A stretch of 64,000 nt of DNA from Escherichia phage vB_VIPECOMC06. The notes beneath the pieces were generated by a model, which was not told the origin of the DNA, did no database searches, and worked only from the letters and a program-made list of their open reading frames with translations. Position numbers and translations under genes: made by a program. Location of the stretch: the sequence record PQ416618.1; one strand, given 5' to 3'. Shown piece after piece: positions 24,551 through 47,029 of this stretch (positions within the stretch are counted from its first letter, which is position 1; every line of letters starts with the position of its first letter).

Positions 24551-25017
24551 ATTATGATAGATTTTATCCTTGCGATTTTGTGAATGGCCCTGGTTGCAGG
24601 GTCGTTCTTTTCGTTACAGGTTGTTTGCATAAATGCGAAGGGTGTTATAATAAATCAACATGGAACGCTAGAAATGGTATTCCATTCACGGGTGAAACAC
24701 TAGAGCAATTAATTGAATGTTTGAATAATGATTATATAGAAGGATTAACTATAACTGGAGGAGACCCTCTCTATCCTGATAACCGAGATGATGTTCATTG
24801 CATTGCTCAAACAGTAAAAAATCTTTATCCCAATAAAAGCATTTGGTTGTGGACAGGGTACAAGTTTGAAGATATTAAACAACTAGAAATGCTTAAATAT
24901 GTTGATGTTATTATTGATGGGAAGTATGAGAAAAATCTTCCGACTAAAAAGCTGTGGCGAGGATCAGATAATCAGCGACTTTGGTCAAATACCGATGGGG
25001 TGTGGAAACATGATTAA
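24547..25017 (+). CDS. nrdG: anaerobic RNR activating enzyme (radical SAM)
   Basis: N-terminal Cys-rich radical-SAM-type region (FVTGCLHKCEGCYNK); ATGA coupled to nrdD. Confidence 0.9.
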   Translation: MNYDRFYPCDFVNGPGCRVVLFVTGCLHKCEGCYNKSTWNARNGIPFTGETLEQLIECLNNDYIEGLTITGGDPLYPDNRDDVHCIAQTVKNLYPNKSIWLWTGYKFEDIKQLEMLKYVDVIIDGKYEKNLPTKKLWRGSDNQRLWSNTDGVWKHD

Positions 25018-36462: not shown

Positions 36463-39174
36463 ATGAAAGAATTTTACTTAACGGTTGAACAGATTGGTGA
36501 TTCAATTTTTGAACGTTACATCGATTCTAATGGCCGTGAACGTACTCGTGAAGTAGAATATAAACCATCACTGTTTGCTCATTGTCCAGAAAGTCAGGCT
36601 ACGAAATATTTCGATATCTACGGTAAGCCGTGTACTCGTAAGTTGTTCGCCAATATGCGTGATGCCTCCCAATGGATTAAACGCATGGAAGATATCGGAC
36701 TTGAAGCACTTGGCATGGACGATTTCAAATTGGCGTATTTGTCTGACACTTATAACTATGAAATCAAATACGACCATACAAAAATTCGTGTGGCTAACTT
36801 CGACATCGAAGTAACATCTCCAGATGGGTTCCCTGAGCCGGCACAAGCAAAACATCCTATTGATGCTATCACCCATTATGACTCAATTGACGACAGGTTC
36901 TACGTATTTGATCTATTGAATTCTCCATATGGTAATGTAGAAGAATGGTCTATCGAAATTGCGGCTAAGCTTCAAGAACAAGGTGGTGATGAAGTTCCAT
37001 CTGAAATTATCGATAAAATCATTTATATGCCGTTCGATAACGAAAAAGAATTGTTGATGGAATATCTCAACTTCTGGCAACAGAAAACTCCTGTCATTTT
37101 GACTGGATGGAACGTTGAGTCATTTGATATTCCATATGTGTATAACCGAATCAAGAATATTTTTGGCGAATCTACTGCGAAACGTTTATCACCACATCGT
37201 AAAACTCGTGTTAAAGTTATCGAAAACATGTATGGTTCTCGTGAAATCATTACATTGTTCGGTATCTCTGTTCTTGATTACATTGACCTTTACAAAAAAT
37301 TCTCTTTTACCAATCAACCGTCATATTCCCTGGATTACATTTCAGAATTTGAATTGAACGTTGGTAAACTGAAATATGACGGCCCTATTTCTAAGCTTCG
37401 TGAAAGCAATCACCAACGATATATTTCTTATAACATTATCGACGTGTATCGTGTATTGCAAATTGATGCTAAGCGTCAGTTCATCAACTTGAGTTTGGAC
37501 ATGGGTTATTATGCTAAAATTCAGATTCAATCTGTGTTTAGCCCAATTAAAACATGGGATGCTATTATTTTTAATAGCCTTAAAGAGCAGAACAAGGTGA
37601 TTCCACAAGGTCGTTCTCATCCGGTTCAACCTTATCCTGGCGCTTTTGTTAAGGAACCTATTCCAAATCGATACAAATATGTAATGAGTTTCGACCTTAC
37701 ATCTCTGTATCCAAGTATTATTCGCCAAGTGAATATTAGCCCAGAAACAATAGCAGGAACGTTTAAAGTAGCTCCATTGCATGATTATATTAACGCTGTT
37801 GCTGAACGTCCTTCTGATGTGTACAGTTGTTCTCCTAACGGCATGATGTATTATAAAGACCGTGACGGTGTTGTTCCAACTGAAATCACTAAGGTCTTTA
37901 ATCAACGTAAAGAACATAAAGGTTACATGCTTGCAGCTCAACGTAATGGTGAAATAATTAAAGAGGCATTGCATAATCCTAATCTTTCTGTTGACGAACC
38001 ATTAGATGTTGATTATCGTTTCGACTTCAGTGATGAGATTAAAGAAAAGATTAAAAAGTTGTCTGCTAAATCTCTTAATGAAATGTTGTTTAGAGCTCAA
38101 CGTACTGAAGTTGCAGGTATGACTGCCCAAATTAACCGTAAATTGCTCATCAACTCGCTTTATGGTGCGCTTGGCAACGTTTGGTTCCGTTATTACGATT
38201 TGCGTAATGCTACTGCAATCACAACATTTGGTCAAATGGCTTTACAGTGGATTGAACGTAAAGTTAATGAATATCTGAATGAAGTTTGTGGCACAGAAGG
38301 TGAAGCTTTCGTTCTTTATGGTGATACAGACTCTATTTACGTATCTGCCGATAAAATTATCGATAAGGTTGGTGAATCTAAATTCCGTGATACCAACCAT
38401 TGGGTAGACTTCTTAGATAAGTTTGCACGTGAACGTATGGAACCAGCTATTGATAGAGGTTTCCGTGAAATGTGTGAATACATGAACAATAAACAACACT
38501 TAATGTTCATGGACCGAGAAGCTATCGCTGGGCCTCCACTCGGTTCTAAAGGTATTGGCGGATTCTGGACCGGTAAGAAACGTTATGCATTAAACGTGTG
38601 GGATATGGAAGGTACTCGTTACGCTGAGCCTAAACTCAAAATCATGGGTCTAGAGACTCAGAAATCTTCGACTCCTAAAGCAGTACAGAAAGCTCTTAAA
38701 GAATGTATTCGTCGTATGCTTCAAGAAGGTGAAGAATCATTACAAGAATATTTTAAAGAGTTTGAAAAAGAATTCCGTCAATTGAATTATATTAGCATCG
38801 CGTCGGTATCTTCTGCGAATAACATTGCTAAATATGATGTAGGTGGATTCCCTGGTCCCAAATGCCCGTTCCATATTCGTGGAATTCTGACGTATAACCG
38901 GGCTATCAAAGGTAATATCGATGCACCGCAAGTTGTAGAAGGTGAAAAAGTATATGTTCTGCCTTTACGTGAAGGAAACCCATTCGGTGATAAATGTATC
39001 GCATGGCCTTCCGGTACTGAAATCACAGATTTAATTAAAGACGACGTACTTCATTGGATGGACTACACTGTTCTCCTTGAGAAGACATTTATTAAACCAC
39101 TTGAAGGATTCACATCAGCAGCGAAACTCGAGTATGAGAAGAAAGCATCTCTGTTCGATATGTTCGATTTTTGA
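36463..39174 (+). CDS. 43: DNA polymerase (family B) gp43
   Basis: 903 aa; exo motifs FDIEV and YNIIDV, polymerase motifs DLTSLYPSII, KLLINSLYG, YGDTDS; length and N-terminus typical of the RB69-type enzyme. Confidence 0.97.
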   Translation: MKEFYLTVEQIGDSIFERYIDSNGRERTREVEYKPSLFAHCPESQATKYFDIYGKPCTRKLFANMRDASQWIKRMEDIGLEALGMDDFKLAYLSDTYNYEIKYDHTKIRVANFDIEVTSPDGFPEPAQAKHPIDAITHYDSIDDRFYVFDLLNSPYGNVEEWSIEIAAKLQEQGGDEVPSEIIDKIIYMPFDNEKELLMEYLNFWQQKTPVILTGWNVESFDIPYVYNRIKNIFGESTAKRLSPHRKTRVKVIENMYGSREIITLFGISVLDYIDLYKKFSFTNQPSYSLDYISEFELNVGKLKYDGPISKLRESNHQRYISYNIIDVYRVLQIDAKRQFINLSLDMGYYAKIQIQSVFSPIKTWDAIIFNSLKEQNKVIPQGRSHPVQPYPGAFVKEPIPNRYKYVMSFDLTSLYPSIIRQVNISPETIAGTFKVAPLHDYINAVAERPSDVYSCSPNGMMYYKDRDGVVPTEITKVFNQRKEHKGYMLAAQRNGEIIKEALHNPNLSVDEPLDVDYRFDFSDEIKEKIKKLSAKSLNEMLFRAQRTEVAGMTAQINRKLLINSLYGALGNVWFRYYDLRNATAITTFGQMALQWIERKVNEYLNEVCGTEGEAFVLYGDTDSIYVSADKIIDKVGESKFRDTNHWVDFLDKFARERMEPAIDRGFREMCEYMNNKQHLMFMDREAIAGPPLGSKGIGGFWTGKKRYALNVWDMEGTRYAEPKLKIMGLETQKSSTPKAVQKALKECIRRMLQEGEESLQEYFKEFEKEFRQLNYISIASVSSANNIAKYDVGGFPGPKCPFHIRGILTYNRAIKGNIDAPQVVEGEKVYVLPLREGNPFGDKCIAWPSGTEITDLIKDDVLHWMDYTVLLEKTFIKPLEGFTSAAKLEYEKKASLFDMFDF

Positions 39175-39214: not shown

Positions 39215-39850
39215 ATGAAAACTACTCCTATTACTATCGCTATTGACGCAATCATAAAACAAGCTTCTTCTTTGGCCGCTATGGCCAAAGTAATTAGTCA
39301 AAACCCTGCTCGTTATAATGCTATTCTAGAAACTCTTCGACGCCCAGGACTTAGTAATTATGAAAGCCGAGTAATTATTACAGGTGTTGGTAAGAATGCT
39401 AATATTGCAACTAAAGCTTCTGAGACATTTGCTTCACTCGGTATCCCGAGTATGTACTTGAACACAGGGCATTATTCTCATGGTGATGCAGGATTCATTG
39501 CGCCTAATGATGTGTTGATTCATATTAGTCGTTCTGGTAAAACTGAAGAAATGATAGGTGTGGCTAAGCATCTTAAAATGATTCGTCCGAACGTCAAACA
39601 GATTCTGTTGCATTGTAACCCTGACATTCCACAAGAATACGAAGCTCTTTTTGATTATACGTTCTGTACAGGCATCGCAGTAGAGGTTGATGAGAATTCT
39701 CTGGCTCCGACCATGTCCACTACATTGTTGTTAGCGCTTATCGATACGTTTGCTATCAACCTTTCGTCTGAACGTGGATTTACCTCTAATGACTTCCTTA
39801 AGTTCCACCCTGGCGGTGCACTAGGTGCCATGTTACGAGGCGAACAATGA
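39215..39850 (+). CDS. SIS-domain sugar-phosphate isomerase (KdsD/GutQ-like arabinose-5-phosphate isomerase, no CBS domains)
   Basis: SIS core VIITGVGKNANIATKASETFASLGIPSMYLNTGHYSHGDAGFIAPNDVLIHISRSGKTEEM parallels the KdsD N-terminal domain. Confidence 0.7.
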   Translation: MKTTPITIAIDAIIKQASSLAAMAKVISQNPARYNAILETLRRPGLSNYESRVIITGVGKNANIATKASETFASLGIPSMYLNTGHYSHGDAGFIAPNDVLIHISRSGKTEEMIGVAKHLKMIRPNVKQILLHCNPDIPQEYEALFDYTFCTGIAVEVDENSLAPTMSTTLLLALIDTFAINLSSERGFTSNDFLKFHPGGALGAMLRGEQ

Positions 39851-40031: not shown

Positions 40032-41717
40032 ATGAAAAAAGCTGTTATTCTTGGTGCTGGATTGGCAACTCGTTTGTATCCAATAACGCATCATATTCCT
40101 AAGGTGCTTGTTAACTATAAACAAGACACTATTCTGAGCAATTTGTATACAATTTATTCTGACCTTGGCGCAGATGAAATTATTGTAGTAGTTCATTCAA
40201 AATTTGCTGAAACTGTTCGAGCTTATTGTGAGCAAGAAGGGTTCAATGTGACTATTCGTACAGTTGATGAAGCGTATGGTTCTGCTTATGCTCTTGCTAA
40301 ATTACACAAAGATTTAGACGGCCATAATGTAATTGTTAACTGGTGTGATATTATTCCTGATTTCGGTTCATGGTCTTGGAATGTTAACGCAATCTATGTT
40401 AAGGGTGACGAATGTCGATATAATTTCGACGGTGAAAATATCACTAACGTAGGTTCAACAGGTGGTAATGTTGTAGGAATTTATCAGTTCAAAGACTGGG
40501 AATTCTATATGGGTTCTACTGATGAGGAAATTCATGAATACTGCAAAGGACGTGATTTCGTAGAATTCCTTTACGGCAGCGCATTCAATAAATCAGAGCT
40601 TATGAATCTAATTGATTTAGGTGATATGCCTAAACTTGAAAAAGCTCATGAAGTTCGTGAACTTAATCGTAGTTTTAATGCAGTTGAAATTGGTGAAGAA
40701 ACTGTAACTAAATTCGCATTAACCGAACAGGGCCGAGCTCTTCAGAAAGATGAGATTTCATGGTATCTTAAAGTGAAATCAGATTCAGTTCCTCAGTTAG
40801 TTTCTGTTAATGAAAATAACTTTGAAATGGAACGCATTAAAGGTAAGCCGGCATTTGAATATATTAAATCCAAATCAAGTCTTGCTCGTCCACAAATTGT
40901 TGATGCAATTTTAGACGCACTGAAATTCAGCACAGACACTTATTTTGTAAGTCCTGAAACTGTTCGTCGTGATTTCACTAAAGAATTCTATACGAAAGTT
41001 ATTGATCGTTGTGAAAGTATTCAACCATTGATTGATTCATTTGGTAAAATCACACATGTAAACTACACTAAGATTGGGCGTCTGAAGCCAATGTTGAAAC
41101 AAGCTTTAGAACACCTTATTCGTTATCATAACCGTTCTCAGGGACAGTACTCTGTTATTCATGGTGACCCGAACTTCAGTAATACTATGATTACTGATAA
41201 CGGTGAAGTCAAGTTTATCGACCCTCGTGGATATTTTGGCGAAACCAAGATTTACGGGCCAAAATTGTATGATGAAGCTAAAGTGCTTTATGCTGTTTCA
41301 GGTTATGATGAATTCAACGCTAATCCGACCTGGGGGCAGTTTACTATTGATGAAACAACTTGTAATGTGACTATTAACATCAATCCATTAGTTTACAAAT
41401 ATGGAAAGATGAGTTCGTTTAACGAGTATCATCATTTGGCAGTGGCAATTATCTGGATTGCATTAGGTGGTTATTTCAAGAATAATCCACTTAAAGCGGT
41501 AGCCGCATATTATAAAGGTATGGAACTTCTGACTAAGCAATTACGTAACATGGGCCGTGTACTTCAGGACGGCTCTATTAGTTATGACGTAGCAGAACCT
41601 GTAACGGCTACTCTGATTACAAAAAATCCTGGTAAATGGGTACTAACTGATAAAGAAACTGGTGTTTCCTATCGTCCAATCGGTGGCGATATCACTCATC
41701 AATGGGAACGAATCTAA
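40032..41717 (+). CDS. bifunctional sugar-1-phosphate nucleotidyltransferase / anomeric sugar kinase (561 aa)
   Basis: N-terminal RmlA/MurU-type motif AVILGAGLATRLYP; C-terminal APH/choline-kinase-type catalytic loop VIHGDPNFSN and FIDPRGYFG. Confidence 0.7.
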   Translation: MKKAVILGAGLATRLYPITHHIPKVLVNYKQDTILSNLYTIYSDLGADEIIVVVHSKFAETVRAYCEQEGFNVTIRTVDEAYGSAYALAKLHKDLDGHNVIVNWCDIIPDFGSWSWNVNAIYVKGDECRYNFDGENITNVGSTGGNVVGIYQFKDWEFYMGSTDEEIHEYCKGRDFVEFLYGSAFNKSELMNLIDLGDMPKLEKAHEVRELNRSFNAVEIGEETVTKFALTEQGRALQKDEISWYLKVKSDSVPQLVSVNENNFEMERIKGKPAFEYIKSKSSLARPQIVDAILDALKFSTDTYFVSPETVRRDFTKEFYTKVIDRCESIQPLIDSFGKITHVNYTKIGRLKPMLKQALEHLIRYHNRSQGQYSVIHGDPNFSNTMITDNGEVKFIDPRGYFGETKIYGPKLYDEAKVLYAVSGYDEFNANPTWGQFTIDETTCNVTININPLVYKYGKMSSFNEYHHLAVAIIWIALGGYFKNNPLKAVAAYYKGMELLTKQLRNMGRVLQDGSISYDVAEPVTATLITKNPGKWVLTDKETGVSYRPIGGDITHQWERI

Positions 41718-42103
41718 TGCACCGTGTAAAAAACATGCTTAATCTTTGTTTTGATGTCGATGATTGTATAACAGAGTGGAATAACAATCGTGATTACGTG
41801 AACTTCAAACCAGACGTCGAAATGGTATCTGCCATTAATGCTCTGTATGATGCAGGGCATACCATAACGCTTTACACTGCTCGCGGTATGAAGTCAGTCG
41901 GTCCTGGTCGTATAGCAATCGACATTCTCCCAAGTCTGATTCAGAACTTGGCAAACATTGGCTTGAAGTACCATAATTTGCTAACACATAAACCAGTATA
42001 TGATTGGATTATCGACGACAAAGCTATGCGTCCTGACGAATTCAAAGCTCTTATGAATAAAGGCGAATTCGAAACATTTAAATCATATAAACCGAATCTA
42101 TAA
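41717..42103 (+). CDS. HAD-superfamily phosphatase (KdsC-like)
   Basis: HAD motif I FDVDDCITE, motif II TLYTARG, motif III K (THKPVYD), motif IV IIDDKA; start uncertain (41717 or 41735). Confidence 0.65.
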   Translation: MHRVKNMLNLCFDVDDCITEWNNNRDYVNFKPDVEMVSAINALYDAGHTITLYTARGMKSVGPGRIAIDILPSLIQNLANIGLKYHNLLTHKPVYDWIIDDKAMRPDEFKALMNKGEFETFKSYKPNL

Positions 42104-42157: not shown

Positions 42158-43318
42158 ATGAATACCTTTAAAATCGGAACGAATTTTGATTTAGCTCTTC
42201 TTGATAAAATCGTAGAGCTCAATAAAACTTATCCTAATAGCTTGATAAACGAAGTATACGGCTCTACAAGAGAAATGGCTTTTGTAGCAGCCAGACCTGA
42301 TTTTAGGCTTCCTGACGTTGACAAAAAGATGTTAGAAGATTACGTTAAACGTTGTAACGAATTAGGTATTTGCTTTAACTATACACTCAACACGATAAAT
42401 CCTGGTTCAAAAAGAGAACTAGTTGAGTGGAAGAAGAAAGCTATTCAGGATTATGTTCAGTATCTTTGGTCAATAGGCGTATGGCGTATTACTATCGCTA
42501 ACCCTGTTGTTATGGAAATTGTTCGTGAAGTCAATAAAGACATTGAGATTGAAGTTTCAACAATTCTACATGTCGATGCTGTAACTCAAATCAAATACTT
42601 GCATGACCAGTATAATATCAAAAAGGTCTGCTGTGGAATTCATAAGAACCGTTCAGTTTCTTTCCTGAAGCGTGCAGCAGAGTTTTGCAATAAGAACAAT
42701 ATAATATTTGAAGTTCTTGTAAATGAGTTCTGTTCTAATGCTGGTAAAGGGTATACAACACATTGTAGTTATCGTGACTCTTGCTATATTTTCCATAGCA
42801 CCGATGTTACAGTAGATGATGCCAAATCCTTAAATGGATATCCAATGCAACACTGCATTAAAGCTCGTGATACAGACCCATTTAACTGGTTGAGAACTCG
42901 TTTTGTTCGTCCTCAAGATTTGAAACTTTATAATGATATTGGTATCACTCAATTTAAAGTTTCTGGACGTACAGGTAGCACCGACTACATTTTGAAAGTT
43001 CTTGAAGCTTATGCTTCTGAAAAGTTTGAAGGTAATTTGTTAGAACTGTGGAAGCCTTTAGAGACTATTTTCACTCTTGAAAACGAAACTGAGTTTTCAC
43101 ATACGGTAAATATTGAAACCTCTTTGTTAGATGGCTTTTTAGAAAAAAGGTGGTTCAAACATCCAGATTTCGATTGTGCTAATGAAATCTGTGGGACGAC
43201 GTGTACATATTGTGAAAGATATTATAAACGTCAGTTATCTAAAAACGGGTTATCAGAAAATTCTATATCTATTATTGATATAACTAACTCTGATGACGCT
43301 TTGAGGTACCCAGAATGA
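42158..43318 (+). CDS. Cys-rich enzyme of unknown function (386 aa)
   Basis: Cys cluster EFCSNAGKGYTTHCSYRDSC and C-terminal CANEICGTTCTYC; weak resemblance to the TIM-barrel peptidase-U32 (RlhA/UbiU) pattern; part of the sugar-nucleotide cassette. Confidence 0.55.
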   Translation: MNTFKIGTNFDLALLDKIVELNKTYPNSLINEVYGSTREMAFVAARPDFRLPDVDKKMLEDYVKRCNELGICFNYTLNTINPGSKRELVEWKKKAIQDYVQYLWSIGVWRITIANPVVMEIVREVNKDIEIEVSTILHVDAVTQIKYLHDQYNIKKVCCGIHKNRSVSFLKRAAEFCNKNNIIFEVLVNEFCSNAGKGYTTHCSYRDSCYIFHSTDVTVDDAKSLNGYPMQHCIKARDTDPFNWLRTRFVRPQDLKLYNDIGITQFKVSGRTGSTDYILKVLEAYASEKFEGNLLELWKPLETIFTLENETEFSHTVNIETSLLDGFLEKRWFKHPDFDCANEICGTTCTYCERYYKRQLSKNGLSENSISIIDITNSDDALRYPE

Positions 43319-43458
43319 TTTCTAGAAAAACTTTTAACCACCAACTTAATGAAGAGATTTTGACTATTAAAATTAACAGCAACGAACAAATTCTTAAACA
43401 GGCCCATAAGGGCCTGTTTGAAACTAAAGCGGCTAAAGTGATTAAAGAACCTAACTAG
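43315..43458 (+). CDS. hypothetical small ORF (47 aa)
   Basis: ATGA-coupled to upstream gene; contains CAGGCCC-ATAA-GGGCCTG hairpin; may be noncoding. Confidence 0.2.
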   Translation: MISRKTFNHQLNEEILTIKINSNEQILKQAHKGLFETKAAKVIKEPN

Positions 43459-43591
43459 AATACTACGCTGATGCATTTCTTCATAGTGTTCTTGGAAGTA
43501 TCGATGCCGAAGCTTTACGTTATATCAACATCGCTAAGAAATTCAAATAAGCTTTATGAATTGAGTATATAATAACTGTATTGAGGTAAAC

Positions 43592-44308
43592 ATGGGAAAA
43601 CATAACACAATGAAATATATTAAAGCCGCAGATTTTCAATCCGCATTTAAAGCAGTCAATCGTGAAATTTTAGAAAACCCGGAATTCGTAACTGATTCTC
43701 GTATTGGACGTTGTAATGAAATTGGGTCTATGACAGTAGTTGTTGACACTCCATCTTCATTCAAAATGACCGATCCACGTATTAACCGCATCTCTTATGA
43801 ATATGCTGAAGATTTCTGGAAGTTTATGATTTCTGGTGGTACTGATGCAGAAGAAGCATTTAAGGCATATCCTAACGTTGCTAAATTTATTTCTAAACCT
43901 AAATCAGACGCTTTGCCTGCAAACTTCAACACTTTCTATGGTCCACGAATTGCGGCCCAGTTACCAGCTCTTTTAAAAGAACTTAAAGAGAAACCTAACT
44001 CCCGAAGAGTTGTGTTCCAAATTCTTGAAAGTTCAGATCAGGCTTTGCTTGATTCAGACGAAACACTTGAATATCCATGTACTGACTCAGTGACTTATTA
44101 TATTCGTGATGGTAAGCTTTATACCCACTGTCATATGCGTTCACAGAACTGTGCTGTTGTTATGCAGTTGGATTTTTATCTCCAAGGAAAATTACTTCAT
44201 TATATCGCTAAAGAATGTGGTGTAGAAGTTGGTGATTATACTCATACCATGGTAAGTGCCCATGTGTTTGAACGTGATTTTGATTATGTTAAAGGATTCC
44301 TTGACTAA
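43592..44308 (+). CDS. 42: thymidylate-synthase-fold pyrimidine hydroxymethylase (dCMP hydroxymethylase-like)
   Basis: TS-family pattern NSRR, catalytic Cys in YPCTDSVTYYIRDGK, MRSQN; position of gene 42 between 43 and uvsX; N-terminal half differs from T4 gp42 as recalled. Confidence 0.6.
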   Translation: MGKHNTMKYIKAADFQSAFKAVNREILENPEFVTDSRIGRCNEIGSMTVVVDTPSSFKMTDPRINRISYEYAEDFWKFMISGGTDAEEAFKAYPNVAKFISKPKSDALPANFNTFYGPRIAAQLPALLKELKEKPNSRRVVFQILESSDQALLDSDETLEYPCTDSVTYYIRDGKLYTHCHMRSQNCAVVMQLDFYLQGKLLHYIAKECGVEVGDYTHTMVSAHVFERDFDYVKGFLD

Positions 44309-45207
44309 TGGCTATTTTCCGCGTACCTATCTTGAGTATGCGGTCTTATGAAACTGGACAGTATGCTATCCTTAAGGATGGCAACTTCCAACTTCATTTG
44401 CACCGTGCTAATCCAGGTGATGTGATTACATATCCACGTAATGCATCTGATATTAAAGAATGCGAACGTCTTTTCCCAGAATTTAAGTTTGTTCCATTAT
44501 GGTATAAAGATAACGCGTATAACACTCGTAAATATTTCTGGTCTGAAAATGAATTTGTGGTTGATTCATTAATTGATTATTATGATTGTGATTTTCTAAT
44601 CACAGATATCACTGGATATGACGGCGCTTTTGATGTGGAATTCAATTTCAATATCACTGCAGACCCTAATAAACCACGTTTTTATATTGACGAATTCTTA
44701 AAAACCGACATGTTGTCTGTTAATCGTTCACTTCAAACTACTGTGTTGAATGAACGTCAAAAAGAAGTGCTGGTTAACGCAGGTGCAGATGGTAATAAGA
44801 TTATCGTAACCCAGAAAGTTATACGTCCTTCCATCATGCAGCGTCTTGTAGGTGATTTGGCTCCTATTCATCTAGATGGTATTTTTCATCCATTTCGAAT
44901 TAGTGACCCATGCTATCGTTTTGAACAAGTGGTTGAATGCGCAATTCAATTAGGCCAACCGCTTTATATAACCGATCCAAATAATAGCTTCGACAGAAAT
45001 AAGTATCCTGAAGAAGCGCTGATTCGAATTTTTAATCCAACTAAAACTGAGTACTATCAAATTCTTAAAGGACGTCCGAAGATTCAATATTTCGAAAATC
45101 CTGAAGAAGTATTCCATCCAGGTCTTGGTGAGTTCATCTACTTTAATGCTTTAATTTCTTCGCCGTATAATATACCTAAATATGAAGATGTCGTAATCGA
45201 GGAATAA
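44308..45207 (+). CDS. hypothetical protein in the beta-gt slot (299 aa); candidate DNA sugar transferase
   Basis: TAATG-coupled to gene 42; occupies the locus where T4 has beta-glucosyltransferase; no motif recognised. Confidence 0.5.
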   Translation: MAIFRVPILSMRSYETGQYAILKDGNFQLHLHRANPGDVITYPRNASDIKECERLFPEFKFVPLWYKDNAYNTRKYFWSENEFVVDSLIDYYDCDFLITDITGYDGAFDVEFNFNITADPNKPRFYIDEFLKTDMLSVNRSLQTTVLNERQKEVLVNAGADGNKIIVTQKVIRPSIMQRLVGDLAPIHLDGIFHPFRISDPCYRFEQVVECAIQLGQPLYITDPNNSFDRNKYPEEALIRIFNPTKTEYYQILKGRPKIQYFENPEEVFHPGLGEFIYFNALISSPYNIPKYEDVVIEE

Positions 45208-45208
45208 A

Positions 45209-45757
45209 ATGGCTAAAATTATTTTAGTAGATGGCCCGGATAATGCCGGTAAAACAACTTTCATTAATGACATAATGGAAATTAGTGAAAGATATGTAAA
45301 GATTGATTTCCCTAAACGAACAGTTGATGGACGTTTCGATGTTAAGTCTCGAAATGAAGTTGGCTGTTTCGAAACGATGTTGAATTATTTAGACCCTACT
45401 AAGATTTATCTGTTAGACCGTGGATATATTAGTAACTGGGTTTATGGACGTATTCGACAAGATGCGGACTCGGTTCTTGACGTTTATGAACAGGATTATG
45501 TTCGTCTTTGCCAAAACCATGATGTGTTCACAATTATTTTAACACGTAACGAAATGACTGAAAGTTTTGAAGACGACCTTATTACTTTGTCTTCATTCGG
45601 TTTTAATACAGTCATTTCATATTTTGAAGAGTTTGCAATTCATAACAAAATTCAAACGTATCAATTACTTAATCATGATGGTGCTAACAAAGTTATAGGA
45701 TTTAATGCAAGCGAACGTAATAATTTGATTACAGAAATTATCAAATGGGCTCGTTAA
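45209..45757 (+). CDS. P-loop nucleoside/nucleotide kinase-like protein (182 aa)
   Basis: Walker A ILVDGPDNAGKTT, LLDRGY; resembles dNK/TMK-type kinases, not T4 gp1. Confidence 0.55.
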   Translation: MAKIILVDGPDNAGKTTFINDIMEISERYVKIDFPKRTVDGRFDVKSRNEVGCFETMLNYLDPTKIYLLDRGYISNWVYGRIRQDADSVLDVYEQDYVRLCQNHDVFTIILTRNEMTESFEDDLITLSSFGFNTVISYFEEFAIHNKIQTYQLLNHDGANKVIGFNASERNNLITEIIKWAR

Positions 45758-45856
45758 GAGCCTGTTTAAAGTTTTAAATGCTGTATAACCGTTAGTATAT
45801 AATCGTCTTATCTTTTAAACATGAGTAAAATATAATGATGCCTATGGAAAAATACA

Positions 45857-47029
45857 ATGTCTGATTTAAAATCTCGTCTGATTAAAGCTTCTACTTCTAA
45901 AATGACTGCAGACTTGACTAAGTCTAAGCTGTTTAATAATCGTGATGAAGTCCCTACTCGTATTCCGATGTTGAATATTGCATTAGGTGGTGCACTGAAT
46001 GCCGGGTTGCAATCAGGCTTAACTATTTTTGCTGCTCCTTCTAAACACTTTAAAACGTTGTTTGGACTGACCATGGTTGCAGCGTATATGAAGAAATATA
46101 AAGATGCAATTTGTTTGTTCTATGATTCAGAATTTGGTGCTTCAGAATCTTATTTTCGTTCAATGGGTGTTGATTTAGACCGTGTAGTTCATACCCCGAT
46201 TCAATCTGTCGAACAACTTAAAGTTGATATGACTAATCAGCTTGACGCGATTGAACGCGGTGATAAAGTTATTATCTTTATCGATTCAATCGGTAATACT
46301 GCATCTAAGAAAGAAACCGAAGATGCGTTGAACGAGAAAGTTGTAGGTGATATGTCTCGTGCTAAGGCACTTAAATCTCTGTTCCGCATTGTGACTCCTT
46401 ATCTGACTATTAAAGATATTCCATGTGTTGCAATCAACCACACAGCAATGGAAATCGGCGGACTATATCCTAAAGAGATTATGGGTGGTGGTACAGGTAT
46501 TCTTTACTCTGCTAACACTGTGTTCTTTATCTCTAAACGTCAGGTTAAAGAAGGTACAGAATTGACTGGTTATGACTTCACACTGAAAGCAGAAAAATCT
46601 CGTACAGTTAAAGAGAAATCTACTTTCCCGATCACGGTTAATTTTGATGGCGGTATTGACCCATTCAGTGGCTTGTTAGAAATGGCAACTGAAATTGGTT
46701 TTGTAGTTAAGCCTAAAGCTGGTTGGTATGCTCGCGAATTCCTTGACGAAGAAACAGGCGAAATGATTCGTGAAGAAAAATCATGGCGTGCTAAAGCTAC
46801 TGATTGTGTAGAATTCTGGGGGCCGTTGTTTAAACATAAGCCTTTCCGTGACGCAATTGAAACTAAATATAAACTAGGTGCTATCTCTTCTATTAAAGAA
46901 GTTGATGATGCTGTTAACGACCTTATTAATTGCAAAGCAACAACTAAAGTTCCGGTTAAAACTTCTGATGCTCCGTCTGCAGCAGATATAGAAAACGACC
47001 TTGACGAAATGGAAGATTTCGATGAATAA
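45857..47029 (+). CDS. uvsX: RecA-like recombinase UvsX
   Basis: Walker A region FAAPSKHFKT, 390 aa, acidic C-terminus DLDEMEDFDE; order uvsX-40-41. Confidence 0.95.
   Translation: MSDLKSRLIKASTSKMTADLTKSKLFNNRDEVPTRIPMLNIALGGALNAGLQSGLTIFAAPSKHFKTLFGLTMVAAYMKKYKDAICLFYDSEFGASESYFRSMGVDLDRVVHTPIQSVEQLKVDMTNQLDAIERGDKVIIFIDSIGNTASKKETEDALNEKVVGDMSRAKALKSLFRIVTPYLTIKDIPCVAINHTAMEIGGLYPKEIMGGGTGILYSANTVFFISKRQVKEGTELTGYDFTLKAEKSRTVKEKSTFPITVNFDGGIDPFSGLLEMATEIGFVVKPKAGWYAREFLDEETGEMIREEKSWRAKATDCVEFWGPLFKHKPFRDAIETKYKLGAISSIKEVDDAVNDLINCKATTKVPVKTSDAPSAADIENDLDEMEDFDE

What the first reader, a model, noticed from the sequence alone, without database searches (positions are those of the whole stretch)
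44308..45207. Unassigned 299-aa protein exactly where T4 encodes beta-glucosyltransferase
It is translationally coupled to the hydroxymethylase and occupies the beta-gt slot between 42 and uvsX, yet shows no resemblance to beta-gt as recalled. Given the adjacent sugar-nucleotide cassette, it is a candidate DNA hmC sugar transferase, possibly a second arabinosyltransferase.
Basis: inference. Interest (0 to 1): 0.7.

Follow-up and report, generated by a model that had tools for sequence, protein, structure and literature searches.

The report
First-step cytosine arabinosyltransferase, RB69-type phage
This gene of an RB69-like phage encodes a small protein with a glycosyltransferase fold. A 2026 paper already proposed that it attaches the first arabinose to the phage's 5-hydroxycytosine (not hydroxymethylcytosine), so it is a real but published candidate whose activity has not been shown.

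Summary
The ORF (44308-45207, +, 299 aa) is real. Its ATG overlaps the upstream stop (TAATG), and it occupies the T4 beta-gt slot between the gene-42 homolog and uvsX.

- **Identity.** The window is a Mosigvirus. The gene is about 99% identical to RB69 gp46:47, which a 1-nt insertion splits in the RB69 record.
  - The upstream enzyme is a flavin-dependent 5-hydroxy-dCMP synthase (RSQN signature, essentially identical to PDB 9iqc), so the acceptor is 5-hydroxycytosine.
  - Synteny and phyletic pattern point to the first transferase, not the second.
  - Lee et al. (NAR 2026) already call it putative "arabinosyltransferase 1".
- **What is unproven.**
  - The DLP3 ortholog was inactive alone on 5hoC-DNA.
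  - The Thanatos ortholog was reported to make UDP-xylose.
- **New here.**
  - The family is small and isolated in sequence (230 representatives among 1.84 billion proteins).
  - It sits next to the synthase in about 50 diverse loci.
  - It is repeatedly fused to the module's dTMP-kinase-like protein or to a KdsC-like phosphatase.
  - Whether the acceptor is DNA or the mononucleotide remains open.

The parts
44308..45207 (+). 299-aa GT-B-fold protein, ortholog of RB69 gp46:47, DLP3 gp79 and Thanatos TH1_063; putative initiating 5-hydroxycytosine arabinosyltransferase
44308..44820 (+). N-terminal Rossmann-like domain (about residues 1-170); presumed acceptor side. Family-invariant R12, Y19, D24, N26, P43, R74, Q151
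   Evidence: Alternating beta/alpha elements in the model. Invariants come from 234 sequences down to 21% identity. The role of the residues is inferred.
44860..45204 (+). C-terminal Rossmann-like domain (about residues 185-299); presumed NDP-sugar side. Invariant P195, R197, D200, Y203, N225, H270; T222-D223-P224 at about 90%, E275 at 89%, K246 at 79%. H270-P-G-L-G-E275 sits at the start of a helix
   Evidence: The position of an Arg/Lys plus a glycine loop and Glu matches where GT-B enzymes bind the nucleotide diphosphate. This rests on established knowledge of GT-B enzymes; it is inference and was not verified by residue-level superposition.
44306..44310 (+). TAATG stop/start overlap between the 5hodCMP synthase gene and this ORF
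   Evidence: The same kind of junction is the rule in relatives: a 4-nt overlap in 19 loci and a 1-nt overlap in 12.
45195..45211 (+). GAGGA Shine-Dalgarno, TAA stop and ATG of the downstream kinase-like gene (one base between stop and start)
43592..44308 (+). Thymidylate-synthase homolog: 5-hydroxy-dCMP synthase (not a dCMP hydroxymethylase)
   Evidence: Pfam PF00303. Only 26% identical to T4 gp42, and carries RSQN where gp42 has RSND. Matches PDB 9iqc/9ir2/9iqu at E 1e-161. Activity of RB69 gp48 was shown in PMC13326640.
45209..45757 (+). dTMP-kinase-like P-loop nucleotide kinase (RB69 gp45 homolog), an obligate partner of the module
   Evidence: PHROG 761. Found in 343 phage records against 348 for the GT, with the same host split. 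Natural fusions with the GT exist.
39215..39850 (+). SIS-domain arabinose-5-phosphate isomerase (sugar-donor cassette)
   Evidence: Pfam SIS; PHROG 5670 at E 2.3e-116.
40032..41717 (+). Bifunctional NTP-transferase / APH-like kinase (RB69 gp52:53; analogous to HY126 AfhE), which makes UDP-arabinose
   Evidence: Pfam PF00483 plus weak APH-type hits. Function in HY126 as summarised in PMC13326640.
41702..42103 (+). HAD-like sugar phosphatase (RB69 gp51; analogous to AfhF)
   Evidence: PHROG 1238; PMC13326640.
42158..43318 (+). Peptidase-U32-family protein of unknown role within the cluster
   Evidence: Pfam PF01136 at E 6.3e-11. Weak UbiU similarity. Present in 20 of 59 loci.

Best explanation
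The ORF encodes the initiating glycosyltransferase of the arabinosyl-5-hydroxycytosine pathway of RB69-type phages.

Proposed pathway:
1. The adjacent cassette converts ribulose-5-P into UDP-arabinofuranose, using the isomerase (39215-39850), the kinase/uridylyltransferase (40032-41717) and the phosphatase (41702-42103).
2. The upstream thymidylate-synthase homolog makes 5-hydroxy-dCMP.
3. This 299-aa GT-B enzyme binds the UDP-sugar in its C-terminal domain (R197, K246, H270-P-G-x-G-E275). It transfers the first arabinose onto the 5-OH of 5-hydroxycytosine held by its N-terminal domain (R12, D24, N26, R74, Q151).
4. A separate ORF003c-type GT4 enzyme, encoded outside this window, adds the second arabinose on DNA.

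Basis of each step:
- Shown by others: the base structure, the synthase activity, the sugar-activation steps in HY126, and addition of the third sugar on DNA by DLP3 gp76 and gp77.
- Shown here: the fold, orthology, synteny, fusions and phyletic pattern.
- Inferred: the transfer reaction itself, the donor, the residue roles, and whether the acceptor is 5hoC in replicated DNA (my slight preference, about 0.4) or the mononucleotide 5hodCMP (about 0.3).
For: Fold and sequence:
- The fold is GT-B, with high model confidence.
- Residues conserved at the expected NDP-sugar site persist across 234 sequences down to 21% identity.

Synteny:
- The gene is orthologous and syntenic with RB69 gp46:47, DLP3 gp79 and Thanatos TH1_063.
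- In 55 loci with usable upstream sequence, 51 have the ThyA homolog upstream on the same strand, and 46 of these end within 15 nt of the GT start. Most junctions are 4-nt or 1-nt overlaps.

Links to both branches of the pathway:
- The sugar-donor branch: fusions with a KdsC-like HAD phosphatase.
- The nucleotide branch: fusions with the kinase in both orders.

First step, not a later one:
- Thanatos carries a single pentose on cytosine. Its whole 160,584-bp genome has no ORF003c-type or beta-gt-type enzyme (PMC13326640 also says it encodes a single ara-GT).
- GT4b copies number 0 in Thanatos, 1 in RB69 and 2 in DLP3, against 1, 2 and 3 sugars (PMC13326640).
- DLP3 gp76 plus gp77 add the third sugar to RB69 DNA.

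Against: - No activity has been shown for any member of the family.
- The Thanatos ortholog TH1_063 did not transfer xylose from UDP-xylose to plasmid DNA, dCMP, dCTP or cytosine. None of these acceptors carries the 5-OH. It did yield UDP-xylose from UTP and xylose-1-P (PMC12838424).
- The canonical GT4 EX7E motif is not conserved: E267 varies and only E275 is kept.
- No curated GT family matches.
- UDP-GlcNAc 2-epimerases, which share the fold but are not transferases, score nearly as well in Foldseek.
- Two key papers could not be read: He et al., Nat Chem Biol 2026, and Mahler et al., Cell Host Microbe 2025. They may contain decisive data either way.
Confidence: 0.68

Rival explanations
1. 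Same enzyme, but it acts before replication. It glycosylates the free mononucleotide (5hodCMP to 5-O-arabinosyl-dCMP). The co-evolving dTMP-kinase-like protein (45209-45757) then phosphorylates this bulky nucleotide, so the phage polymerase incorporates an already glycosylated dCTP analogue. This is a variant of the best explanation, so its probability lies inside the 0.68 and is not added to it.
For: - The gene order synthase, GT, kinase has coupled junctions and matches the proposed reaction order.
- GT and kinase co-occur strictly: 348 against 343 of 50,697 phage records, with the same host split.
- At least eight independent fusions join the GT to this kinase, in both orders, and they sit in the usual module context.
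- RB69 already has a gp1-type dNMP kinase that phosphorylates 5hodCMP, so a second kinase kept in every genome suggests a different substrate.
- DLP3 gp79 is inactive on 5hoC-DNA.
- The family is acidic: pI 4.99 here and a median of 5.2, against 9.05 for T4 beta-gt.
- Lee et al. state that their data cannot tell the mononucleotide from DNA as acceptor.
Against: - Every phage DNA glycosylation characterised so far happens after replication (established knowledge of T-even phages).
- Fusions in this module also join non-consecutive steps. The kinase/uridylyltransferase fusion brackets the phosphatase step, and the phosphatase is fused to the GT. Fusion therefore proves a shared pathway, not adjacent steps.
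- The kinase may simply be the ancestral 5hodCMP kinase of a mobile module.
- pI is weak evidence: the DNA-acting DLP3 gp77 has pI 5.7.
- 5hodC is readily incorporated into DNA when only the synthase and the dNMP kinase are expressed.
Confidence: 0.3
2. The protein is a UDP-pentose pyrophosphorylase (a sugar-1-phosphate uridylyltransferase) that makes the activated sugar, and does not transfer it, as reported for the Thanatos ortholog TH1_063.
For: His-tagged TH1_063 with UTP and xylose-1-phosphate gave UDP-xylose by LC-MS/MS, and no transfer of xylose to DNA or nucleotides was seen (PMC12838424). TH1_063 is a true ortholog: 47.5% identity and the same position.
Against: - There is no PF00483 or PF12804 signal.
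- The cluster already encodes a genuine NTP-transferase domain in the 561-aa protein, whose HY126 counterpart AfhE was shown to make UDP-arabinose.
- The published assay had only a no-enzyme control, so a co-purifying host uridylyltransferase is not excluded.
- The acceptors tested lacked the 5-OH group.
Confidence: 0.06
3. One reading: an hmC-directed sugar transferase, functionally equivalent to beta-gt, or the second arabinosyltransferase that makes the di-arabinosyl form.
For: - It occupies the same genomic slot as T4 beta-gt.
- RB69-type DNA does contain di-arabinosylated bases.
Against: - The phage makes 5hoC, not hmC.
- The family is present and alone in the mono-pentosylated Thanatos.
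- Extra sugars correlate with ORF003c-type GT4 enzymes. DLP3 gp76 plus gp77 extend RB69 DNA in vitro.
- A Bas46 mutant deleted for an arabinosyltransferase called 'Aat' was obtained (cited in PMC13216743). My recollection, which I could not verify, is that Aat is the second-step enzyme.
Confidence: 0.05
4. A GT-B-fold protein that is not itself a transferase. It could be an NDP-sugar epimerase or mutase, as UDP-GlcNAc 2-epimerases share the fold. It could also be a non-catalytic partner that presents the substrate to another enzyme.
For: - DLP3 gp79 was inactive alone.
- DLP3 gp76 and gp77 work only as a pair, which shows that these systems can need partners.
Against: - There is no Epimerase_2 Pfam signal.
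- Thanatos would then have no transferase at all.
- The minimal modules Flavodoxin_2 - ThyA homolog - GT - kinase contain no other transferase candidate within 6-8 kb.
Confidence: 0.1

Closest known systems
RB69 gp46:47 / Acinetobacter phage DLP3 gp79 / Shewanella phage Thanatos TH1_063 ('arabinosyltransferase 1' of Lee et al., NAR 2026)
   Same: - Orthologs: 98.7% nucleotide identity to RB69, and 45.6% and 47.5% protein identity to DLP3 gp79 and TH1_063.
- Same position directly after the 5hodCMP synthase.
- Same predicted GT-B fold and the same top structural neighbours (6kih, MshA 3c4q).
   Different: Nothing substantive. In the window the ORF is intact. The RB69 record has an extra T after window position 44851 (codon 182) that creates a TAG.
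T4 beta-glucosyltransferase (gene b-gt; CAZy GT63 from my own knowledge)
   Same: - Same genomic slot between the gene-42 homolog and uvsX.
- Both have a GT-B architecture. For beta-gt this rests on established knowledge; I did not see beta-gt among my top hits.
- Both are presumed to decorate a C5-oxygen of a modified cytosine.
   Different: - No detectable sequence relationship (BLASTP E 3.8; hhalign 0.1%).
- 299 aa against 351 aa; pI 4.99 against 9.05.
- The acceptor is a ring 5-OH (5hoC), not the hydroxymethyl group.
- The sugar is arabinofuranose, not glucose.
- This looks like non-orthologous replacement in a plastic locus, not divergence.
T4 alpha-glucosyltransferase (PDB 1y6f)
   Different: - 12% identity.
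- Different acceptor and sugar.
RB69 ORF003c / phage HY126 glycosyltransferase (PDB 9iqz, 9ir0) / DLP3 gp76 and gp77: the GT4-type chain-extending arabinosyltransferases
   Same: - UDP-Araf was used as donor by the DLP3 pair.
   Different: - A separate family: hhalign probability 0.12% against DLP3 gp77.
- About 366-373 aa.
- Variable copy number and location; not in this window (tblastn best E 0.099).
- 9iqz is the ORF003c homolog (E 5e-249), not a member of the 299-aa family, which has no solved structure.
Bacterial retaining GT4 enzymes (sucrose-phosphate synthase 6kih, BshA 6n1x, MshA 3c4q, PimA 2gej)
   Same: - They use UDP or GDP sugars and small-molecule or lipid acceptors.
   Different: - 7-12% identity.
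- No Glycos_transf_1 profile match.
- About 60-100 residues shorter.
- EX7E is not conserved.

Membership tests
GT-B fold glycosyltransferase superfamily | Two facing Rossmann-like beta/alpha/beta domains | tested here: met
   [not shown]
GT-B fold glycosyltransferase superfamily | NDP-sugar binding residues in the C-terminal domain (basic residue for the diphosphate, a glycine-rich loop at a helix N-terminus, an acidic residue for the ribose) | tested here: inconclusive
   R197, N225 and H270 are at least 95% conserved; E275 is 89% and K246 is 79% across 234 sequences. They lie after C-domain strands or at the start of a helix. No residue-level superposition could be made with these tools.
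GT-B fold glycosyltransferase superfamily | Catalyses glycosyl transfer from an activated donor | not testable with these tools
   Published in vitro attempts on orthologs were negative: DLP3 gp79 alone on 5hoC-DNA, and TH1_063 with UDP-xylose on acceptors lacking the 5-OH.
GT4 / Pfam Glycos_transf_1 (PF00534) | Match to the family sequence profile | tested here: not met
   No Pfam family at E <= 0.1 for the window protein, nor at E <= 1 for nine divergent members. NCBIfam gave nothing meaningful. hhalign against the GT4-type DLP3 gp77 gave probability 0.12%.
GT4 / Pfam Glycos_transf_1 (PF00534) | EX7E motif | tested here: not met
   E267-x7-E275 exists in the window protein, but position 267 is not conserved in the family. 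Only E275 is conserved, at 89%.
T4 beta-glucosyltransferase family | Sequence homology to T4 b-gt | tested here: not met
   BLASTP E 3.8 and hhalign probability 0.1%. No T4 GT among the top 50 BFVD hits.
T4 beta-glucosyltransferase family | Acceptor is 5-hydroxymethylcytosine in DNA | tested here: not met
   The phage's ThyA homolog has the 5hodCMP-synthase signature and is essentially identical to 9iqc. RB69-type DNA contains arabosylated 5-hydroxycytosine (PMC13326640; PMC13390438).
T4 beta-glucosyltransferase family | Genomic position between gene 42 and uvsX | tested here: met
Phage 'arabinosyltransferase 1' family (RB69 gp46:47, DLP3 gp79, TH1_063; PHROG 3891) | Sequence orthology | tested here: met
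   PHROG 3891 at E 1.5e-155. 98.7% nucleotide identity to RB69. 45.6% and 47.5% protein identity to DLP3 gp79 and TH1_063 over at least 98% of the length.
Phage 'arabinosyltransferase 1' family (RB69 gp46:47, DLP3 gp79, TH1_063; PHROG 3891) | Immediate adjacency to a 5hodCMP-synthase-type ThyA homolog, with the dTMP-kinase-like gene in the cluster | tested here: met
   Seen in the window. Among relatives, 51 of 55 loci have the synthase upstream, 46 of them within 15 nt. The kinase is in 52 of 59 loci by phmmer, plus L060 by Pfam.
Sugar-1-phosphate nucleotidylyltransferases (the published activity of TH1_063) | NTP_transferase (GT-A-like) fold and profile | tested here: not met
   [not shown]
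UDP-GlcNAc 2-epimerase family (GT-B fold, not a transferase) | Epimerase_2 sequence profile | tested here: not met
   [not shown]

The most novel reading that the evidence does not exclude
The first sugar is attached before replication. This GT arabinosylates the free nucleotide 5-hydroxy-dCMP made by its translationally coupled upstream neighbour. The module's dedicated dTMP-kinase-like protein exists to phosphorylate the bulky arabinosyl-dCMP, so the phage polymerase incorporates a ready-glycosylated dCTP analogue. Only the later sugars are added on DNA. As far as I know, this would be the first case of nucleotide-level glycosylation in phage DNA hypermodification. The repeated GT-kinase fusions, the strict co-occurrence, the redundancy with the gp1-type kinase and the inactivity of DLP3 gp79 on 5hoC-DNA are all compatible with it. 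None of them proves it, and He et al. 2026, which I could not read, may already settle the question.
Probability: 0.3. Interest if true: 0.8.

Novelty: already known. Interest (0 to 1): 0.3.

Why it matters
Arabinosyl-5-hydroxycytosine protects a large group of therapeutic-candidate coliphages and Acinetobacter phages from restriction enzymes, DNA glycosylases and some CRISPR systems. In the literature I could read, the enzyme that installs the first sugar is the one step of the pathway still without biochemical proof.

For annotation, more than 340 phage genomes label this gene 'hypothetical' and its upstream neighbour 'dCMP hydroxymethylase' or 'thymidylate synthase'. Both labels can be improved.

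For mechanism, the open question is whether a glycosylated nucleotide can be made and polymerised before replication. The fusions with a nucleotide kinase make that directly testable.

As a discovery the finding itself is not new. Lee et al. (2026) published the same structural inference for the RB69 ortholog.

Tried and rejected
1. Sequence-profile assignment gave nothing. This covers Pfam, NCBIfam, PDB sequence profiles, and hhalign against T4 beta-gt and DLP3 gp77. The GT call rests on predicted fold only.
2. I looked for the second (ORF003c-type) transferase in the window. It is absent (best tblastn E 0.099). By collinearity with RB69 it lies just beyond the window end.
3. I looked for a solved structure of this family. 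The 'phage HY126 glycosyltransferase' 9iqz turned out to be the ORF003c homolog.
4. He et al. (Nat Chem Biol 2026) and Mahler et al. (Cell Host Microbe 2025) are not held in the library. No preprint or other accessible paper tests this protein.
5. I tried pI as a discriminator between DNA and nucleotide acceptors. It is suggestive only, because the DNA-acting DLP3 gp77 is also acidic.
6. The sigma-70 promoter and terminator scan was uninformative: 9 sites against 13 expected, and T4-type middle and late promoters are not covered.
7. I tested whether the unassigned 265-288-aa proteins upstream of the GT in L055 and L060 are cryptic ThyA homologs. They are not (hhalign 0.1-0.2%).
8. Single-sequence phmmer missed the fused domains. 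A custom HMM built from 46 kinase ORFs was needed to find them.
9. I rejected 'UDP-pentose pyrophosphorylase' as the primary function on grounds of fold and because of the dedicated NTP-transferase next door. I keep it as a low-probability rival because it is the only positive biochemical result for any ortholog.
Full report
**1. Observation.** The ORF listing and the raw sequence show an ATG ORF at 44308-45207 on the + strand, 299 aa. Its start codon shares one base with the TAA of the upstream gene (43592-44308; 'TAATG'). Its stop is followed after one base by the ATG of the next gene (45209), with a GAGGA ribosome-binding site inside the 3' end of the ORF. The consensus scan found no + strand terminator-like site across 43200-46000. 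Its only two + strand promoter-like matches (45508-45537 and 45845-45872) fall inside or beyond the kinase-like gene. The scan as a whole was not enriched (9 sites against 13 expected) and does not cover T4-type promoters.

I checked the 'beta-gt slot' statement against the annotated T4 record. T4 reads 43 - imm.1 - imm - 42 - b-gt - segA - uvsX - 40 - 41. The window reads 43 (36463-39174), a five-gene insert, a gene-42 homolog, this ORF, a kinase-like gene, uvsX (45857-47029), 40 and 41.

There is no sequence resemblance to T4 beta-gt: BLASTP E 3.8 and profile-profile probability 0.1%.

**2. Provenance.** The ORF is 98.6-98.9% identical in DNA to 153 Mosigvirus (RB69-like) genomes. It matches PHROG 3891, 'unknown function', at E 1.5e-155. 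In the RB69 reference it appears as two ORFs (ORF047c and ORF046c). The record has one extra T after window position 44851 (codon 182) that creates a TAG. Nearly every other Mosigvirus record (152 of 153) matches in one uninterrupted piece. Every record calls the gene 'hypothetical'.

**3. What the literature already says.**
- Thomas et al. 2018 (PMC6024577) found arabinose in RB69 DNA and proposed ORF003c as the transferase. They did not discuss this ORF.
- Lee et al., NAR 2026 (PMC13326640), revised the chemistry. The base is mono- or di-arabinosylated 5-hydroxycytosine, with the sugar joined to C5 through an ether oxygen.
- In the same paper, the thymidylate-synthase homolog (RB69 gp48) was shown in vivo, with 18O2 labelling and a bound flavin, to make 5-hydroxy-dCMP.
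- The same paper reports that the individual DLP3 transferases, including the ortholog gp79, gave no arabinosylation of 5hoC-DNA. DLP3 gp76 plus gp77 together add a third arabinose to RB69 DNA. The authors cannot tell whether the first arabinosylation happens on the mononucleotide or after replication.
- A Durham-collection paper says the same of the Mosigvirus NP.
- Brandt et al. (PMC12838424) studied Shewanella phage Thanatos. I verified that TH1_063 is the ortholog (47.5% identity, same position). They reported that purified TH1_063 forms UDP-xylose from UTP and xylose-1-P. It did not transfer xylose to plasmid DNA, dCMP, dCTP or cytosine.
- Two papers likely to be decisive are not held in the library: He et al., Nat Chem Biol 2026, on phage HY126, and Mahler et al., Cell Host Microbe 2025.

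**4. Independent structural test.** Curated profile libraries gave nothing:
- Pfam, for the window protein and for nine divergent relatives;
- NCBIfam;
- a family profile searched against all PDB sequences (best E 0.37).

A 58-sequence alignment gave an AlphaFold2 model with mean pLDDT 95.1 and pTM 0.89.

- **Foldseek.** It agrees (9v0w 6.6e-7, MshA 1.7e-6), but UDP-GlcNAc 2-epimerases, which share the fold, rank close behind.
- **BFVD.** It returns family members, then generic viral GT1/GT4 proteins. T4 alpha-gt and beta-gt are not in the top 50.
- **Nucleotidyltransferases.** None appears in any list.

9iqz is not a member of this family. It is the ORF003c homolog (E 5e-249), so the 299-aa family has no solved representative.

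**5. The upstream gene is not a hydroxymethylase.** It is only 26% identical to T4 gp42. It carries R-S-Q-N where gp42 has R-S-N-D, which is the D169N signature Lee et al. use to diagnose 5hodCMP synthases. It matches PDB 9iqc/9ir2/9iqu over its full length at E 1e-161. The acceptor oxygen is therefore the ring 5-OH of 5-hydroxycytosine, not a hydroxymethyl group.

**6. Extent of the family and its invariant core.** An exhaustive profile search of 1.84 billion representative proteins found only 230 hits at E <= 1e-3, 163 of them at E <= 1e-10. The family is small and isolated in sequence, and it does not grade into the very large GT4 or GT1 families.

I aligned 234 members, down to 21% identity.
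- Residues kept in at least 95% are R12, Y19, D24, N26, P43, R74 and Q151 in the N-terminal domain, and P195, R197, D200, Y203, N225 and H270 in the C-terminal domain.
- T222-D223-P224 is kept at about 90%, E275 at 89% and K246 at 79%.
- The C-domain set (Arg or Lys after strands, and H-P-G-x-G-E at the start of a helix) lies where GT-B enzymes hold the nucleotide diphosphate and ribose. This is inference from established knowledge of GT-B enzymes.
- The canonical GT4 EX7E motif is not conserved.

**7. Genomic context across distant phages.** I examined 56 IMG/VR loci plus reference loci.
- Of 55 loci with enough upstream sequence, 51 have the ThyA homolog upstream on the same strand.
- In 46 of these it ends within 15 nt of the GT start. 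The commonest junctions are a 4-nt overlap (19 loci) and a 1-nt overlap (12 loci).
- The dTMP-kinase-like gene lies directly downstream in 40 of 59 loci and somewhere in the cluster in at least 52.
- Across 50,697 phage records the kinase occurs in 343 and the GT in 348, with the same host breakdown.
- A subgroup from metagenomic phages has only Flavodoxin_2 - ThyA homolog - GT - kinase, with no arabinose cassette nearby (L007, L036-L049). The flavodoxin-like reductase fits the flavin-dependent hydroxylase.
- ORF003c-type GT4 genes appear in the cluster only in Acinetobacter phages, in two copies. In RB69 there is one distant copy.
- The whole 160,584-bp Thanatos genome has none (best E 0.11). 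The window has none.
- The number of GT4-type enzymes (0, 1, 2) matches the number of extra sugars in Thanatos, RB69 and DLP3. The 299-aa family is constant throughout. This is the main argument that it performs the first transfer, not the second.

**8. Natural fusions.**
- *Phosphatase fusion.* In L058 the GT is fused behind a KdsC-like HAD sugar phosphatase (TIGR01670, E 1.3e-12). Related 536-553-aa forms exist.
- *Kinase fusions.* Using an HMM built from 46 kinase-like ORFs of these loci, I found GT-kinase fusions in P0213, P0238, P0242, P0252, P0257 and P0258, and P0233 by Pfam. P0229 is a fusion in the opposite order, kinase then GT.
- *Context.* P0258 sits directly after a ThyA homolog and before an APH-type sugar kinase. 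P0229 sits between a dCMP deaminase and a U32-family gene.

The fusions tie the protein both to the sugar-donor branch and to the nucleotide branch of one pathway.

**9. Mechanism.** The best-supported reading (0.68) is that this is the initiating arabinosyltransferase. It takes UDP-arabinofuranose from the adjacent cassette and glycosylates the 5-OH of 5-hydroxycytosine. The sugar-activation steps were shown for HY126 AfhE and AfhF, as summarised by Lee et al.. The ORF003c-type enzyme then extends the chain on DNA.

The transfer step is inferred, and so is the state of the acceptor.
- *For DNA (about 0.4).* The T-even precedent, and the easy incorporation of 5hodC into DNA.
- *For the mononucleotide (about 0.3).*
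  - The order synthase, GT, kinase, with coupled junctions.
  - The kinase fusions.
  - The retention of this kinase even though RB69's gp1-type kinase already phosphorylates 5hodCMP.
  - The inactivity of DLP3 gp79 on 5hoC-DNA.
  - The acidic character of the family: pI 4.99 here and a median of 5.2, against 9.05 for T4 beta-gt.
- *Caveats.*
  - Fusions in this module also join non-consecutive steps.
  - DLP3 gp77, which acts on DNA, has pI 5.7.

**10. Rivals.**
- *UDP-pentose pyrophosphorylase (0.06).* This is the only positive biochemical result for an ortholog. It conflicts with the fold and with the genuine NTP-transferase domain next door. The assay had only a no-enzyme control.
- *A GT-B-fold protein that is not a transferase: an epimerase, a mutase or a non-catalytic partner (0.10).* The epimerase similarity and the need for partners in DLP3 allow it. 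Thanatos and the minimal modules would then lack any transferase.

**11. Comparison and novelty.**
- *How it works.* It most likely works like T4 alpha-gt and beta-gt, as a GT-B enzyme decorating an oxygen at C5 of a modified cytosine.
- *Family membership.* It is not a member of either T4 family or of GT4 by sequence. It is a non-orthologous occupant of the beta-gt slot.
- *What it is.* It is an ortholog of RB69 gp46:47, for which the same structural inference was published in 2026, so the finding is already known.
  - An independent confirmation of the fold.
  - The size and invariant core of the family.
  - The quantified synteny.
  - The whole-genome check of Thanatos.
  - The kinase and phosphatase fusions.
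  - An explicit statement of the conflict with the Thanatos biochemistry.

**12. Verdict.**
It is not novel.
- Interest is 0.3. A specialist would not be surprised, but the unresolved acceptor question is directly testable and would be notable if the nucleotide-level route proved true.

Noticed in passing
It is 26% identical to T4 gp42, carries RSQN where gp42 has RSND, and matches PDB 9iqc/9ir2/9iqu at E 1e-161. Many GenBank records still label it dCMP hydroxymethylase or thymidylate synthase.
   Followed up: yes
window 42158-43318 (+); also L055 6954-8051, L060 6876-7964, L070 9179-10276: A peptidase-U32-family gene sits in the cluster (Pfam E 6.3e-11; weak NCBIfam similarity to the O2-independent hydroxylase UbiU, E 4.8e-4).

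In L055, L057, L060, L070 and L071 it lies next to the GT (one 174-aa gene away in L070 and L071). No ThyA homolog could be found in these loci.

From my own knowledge, the U32 family includes O2-independent hydroxylation factors (UbiU/V, RlhA for ho5C, TrhP for ho5U). It might therefore be an oxygen-independent route to the 5-OH, which would be useful in the anaerobic gut. Lee et al. list it only as 'sugar or heterocycle reductase'.
   Followed up: partly
window 45209-45757 (+): The dTMP-kinase-like P-loop protein co-occurs almost perfectly with the GT (343 against 348 phage records). This holds even though these phages also carry a gp1-type dNMP kinase shown to phosphorylate 5hodCMP. Its substrate is unknown, and it has no relative in the PDB by sequence.
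   Followed up: partly
P0213, P0229, P0233, P0238, P0242, P0252, P0257, P0258; loci L069 3714-5405 and L070 7001-8662; L058 5452-7107: Natural fusions of the GT domain occur with the module's kinase-like domain, in both orders, and with a KdsC-like HAD sugar phosphatase.
   Followed up: partly
L007 6739-9594; L036-L049: A minimal four-gene module, Flavodoxin_2 - ThyA homolog - long-form GT (about 345-360 aa) - kinase, occurs in metagenomic phages with no arabinose-nucleotide cassette within 6-8 kb. This suggests a host-derived sugar donor and other glycosylated 5hoC variants. The flavodoxin-like gene is a plausible flavin reductase for the hydroxylase.
   Followed up: partly
L070 6555-10276 and L071: One variant reads dCMP deaminase - kinase-GT fusion - 174-aa protein - U32-like gene, with a dUTPase/DCD gene upstream and no ThyA homolog. 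This could point to a different hydroxylated pyrimidine, possibly a uracil derivative, as the acceptor. That is pure speculation.
   Followed up: no
window 44851 (codon 182 of the ORF); RB69 NC_004928 about 24947-24949: The RB69 reference record has one extra T ('GTAGTGTG' against 'GTAGGTG') that creates a TAG and splits the gene into ORF047c and ORF046c. The window and about 150 other Mosigvirus genomes are intact.
   Followed up: yes
window 43319-43591: This 273-nt gap before the synthase gene is the only sizeable intergenic gap in the cluster. Two GenBank records (SA79RD, SA35RD) annotate a 'promoter' overlapping the region matched by this ORF. The sigma-70 scan was uninformative, and T4 middle and late promoters were not examined.
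   Followed up: no
L001 9917-12317 (Thanatos TH1_067-070); also L022, L031, L033: In several relatives uvsX is split into two pieces. In Thanatos a Seg-like GIY-YIG homing endonuclease lies between them. This recalls segA next to uvsX in T4 and shows how plastic this locus is.
   Followed up: no
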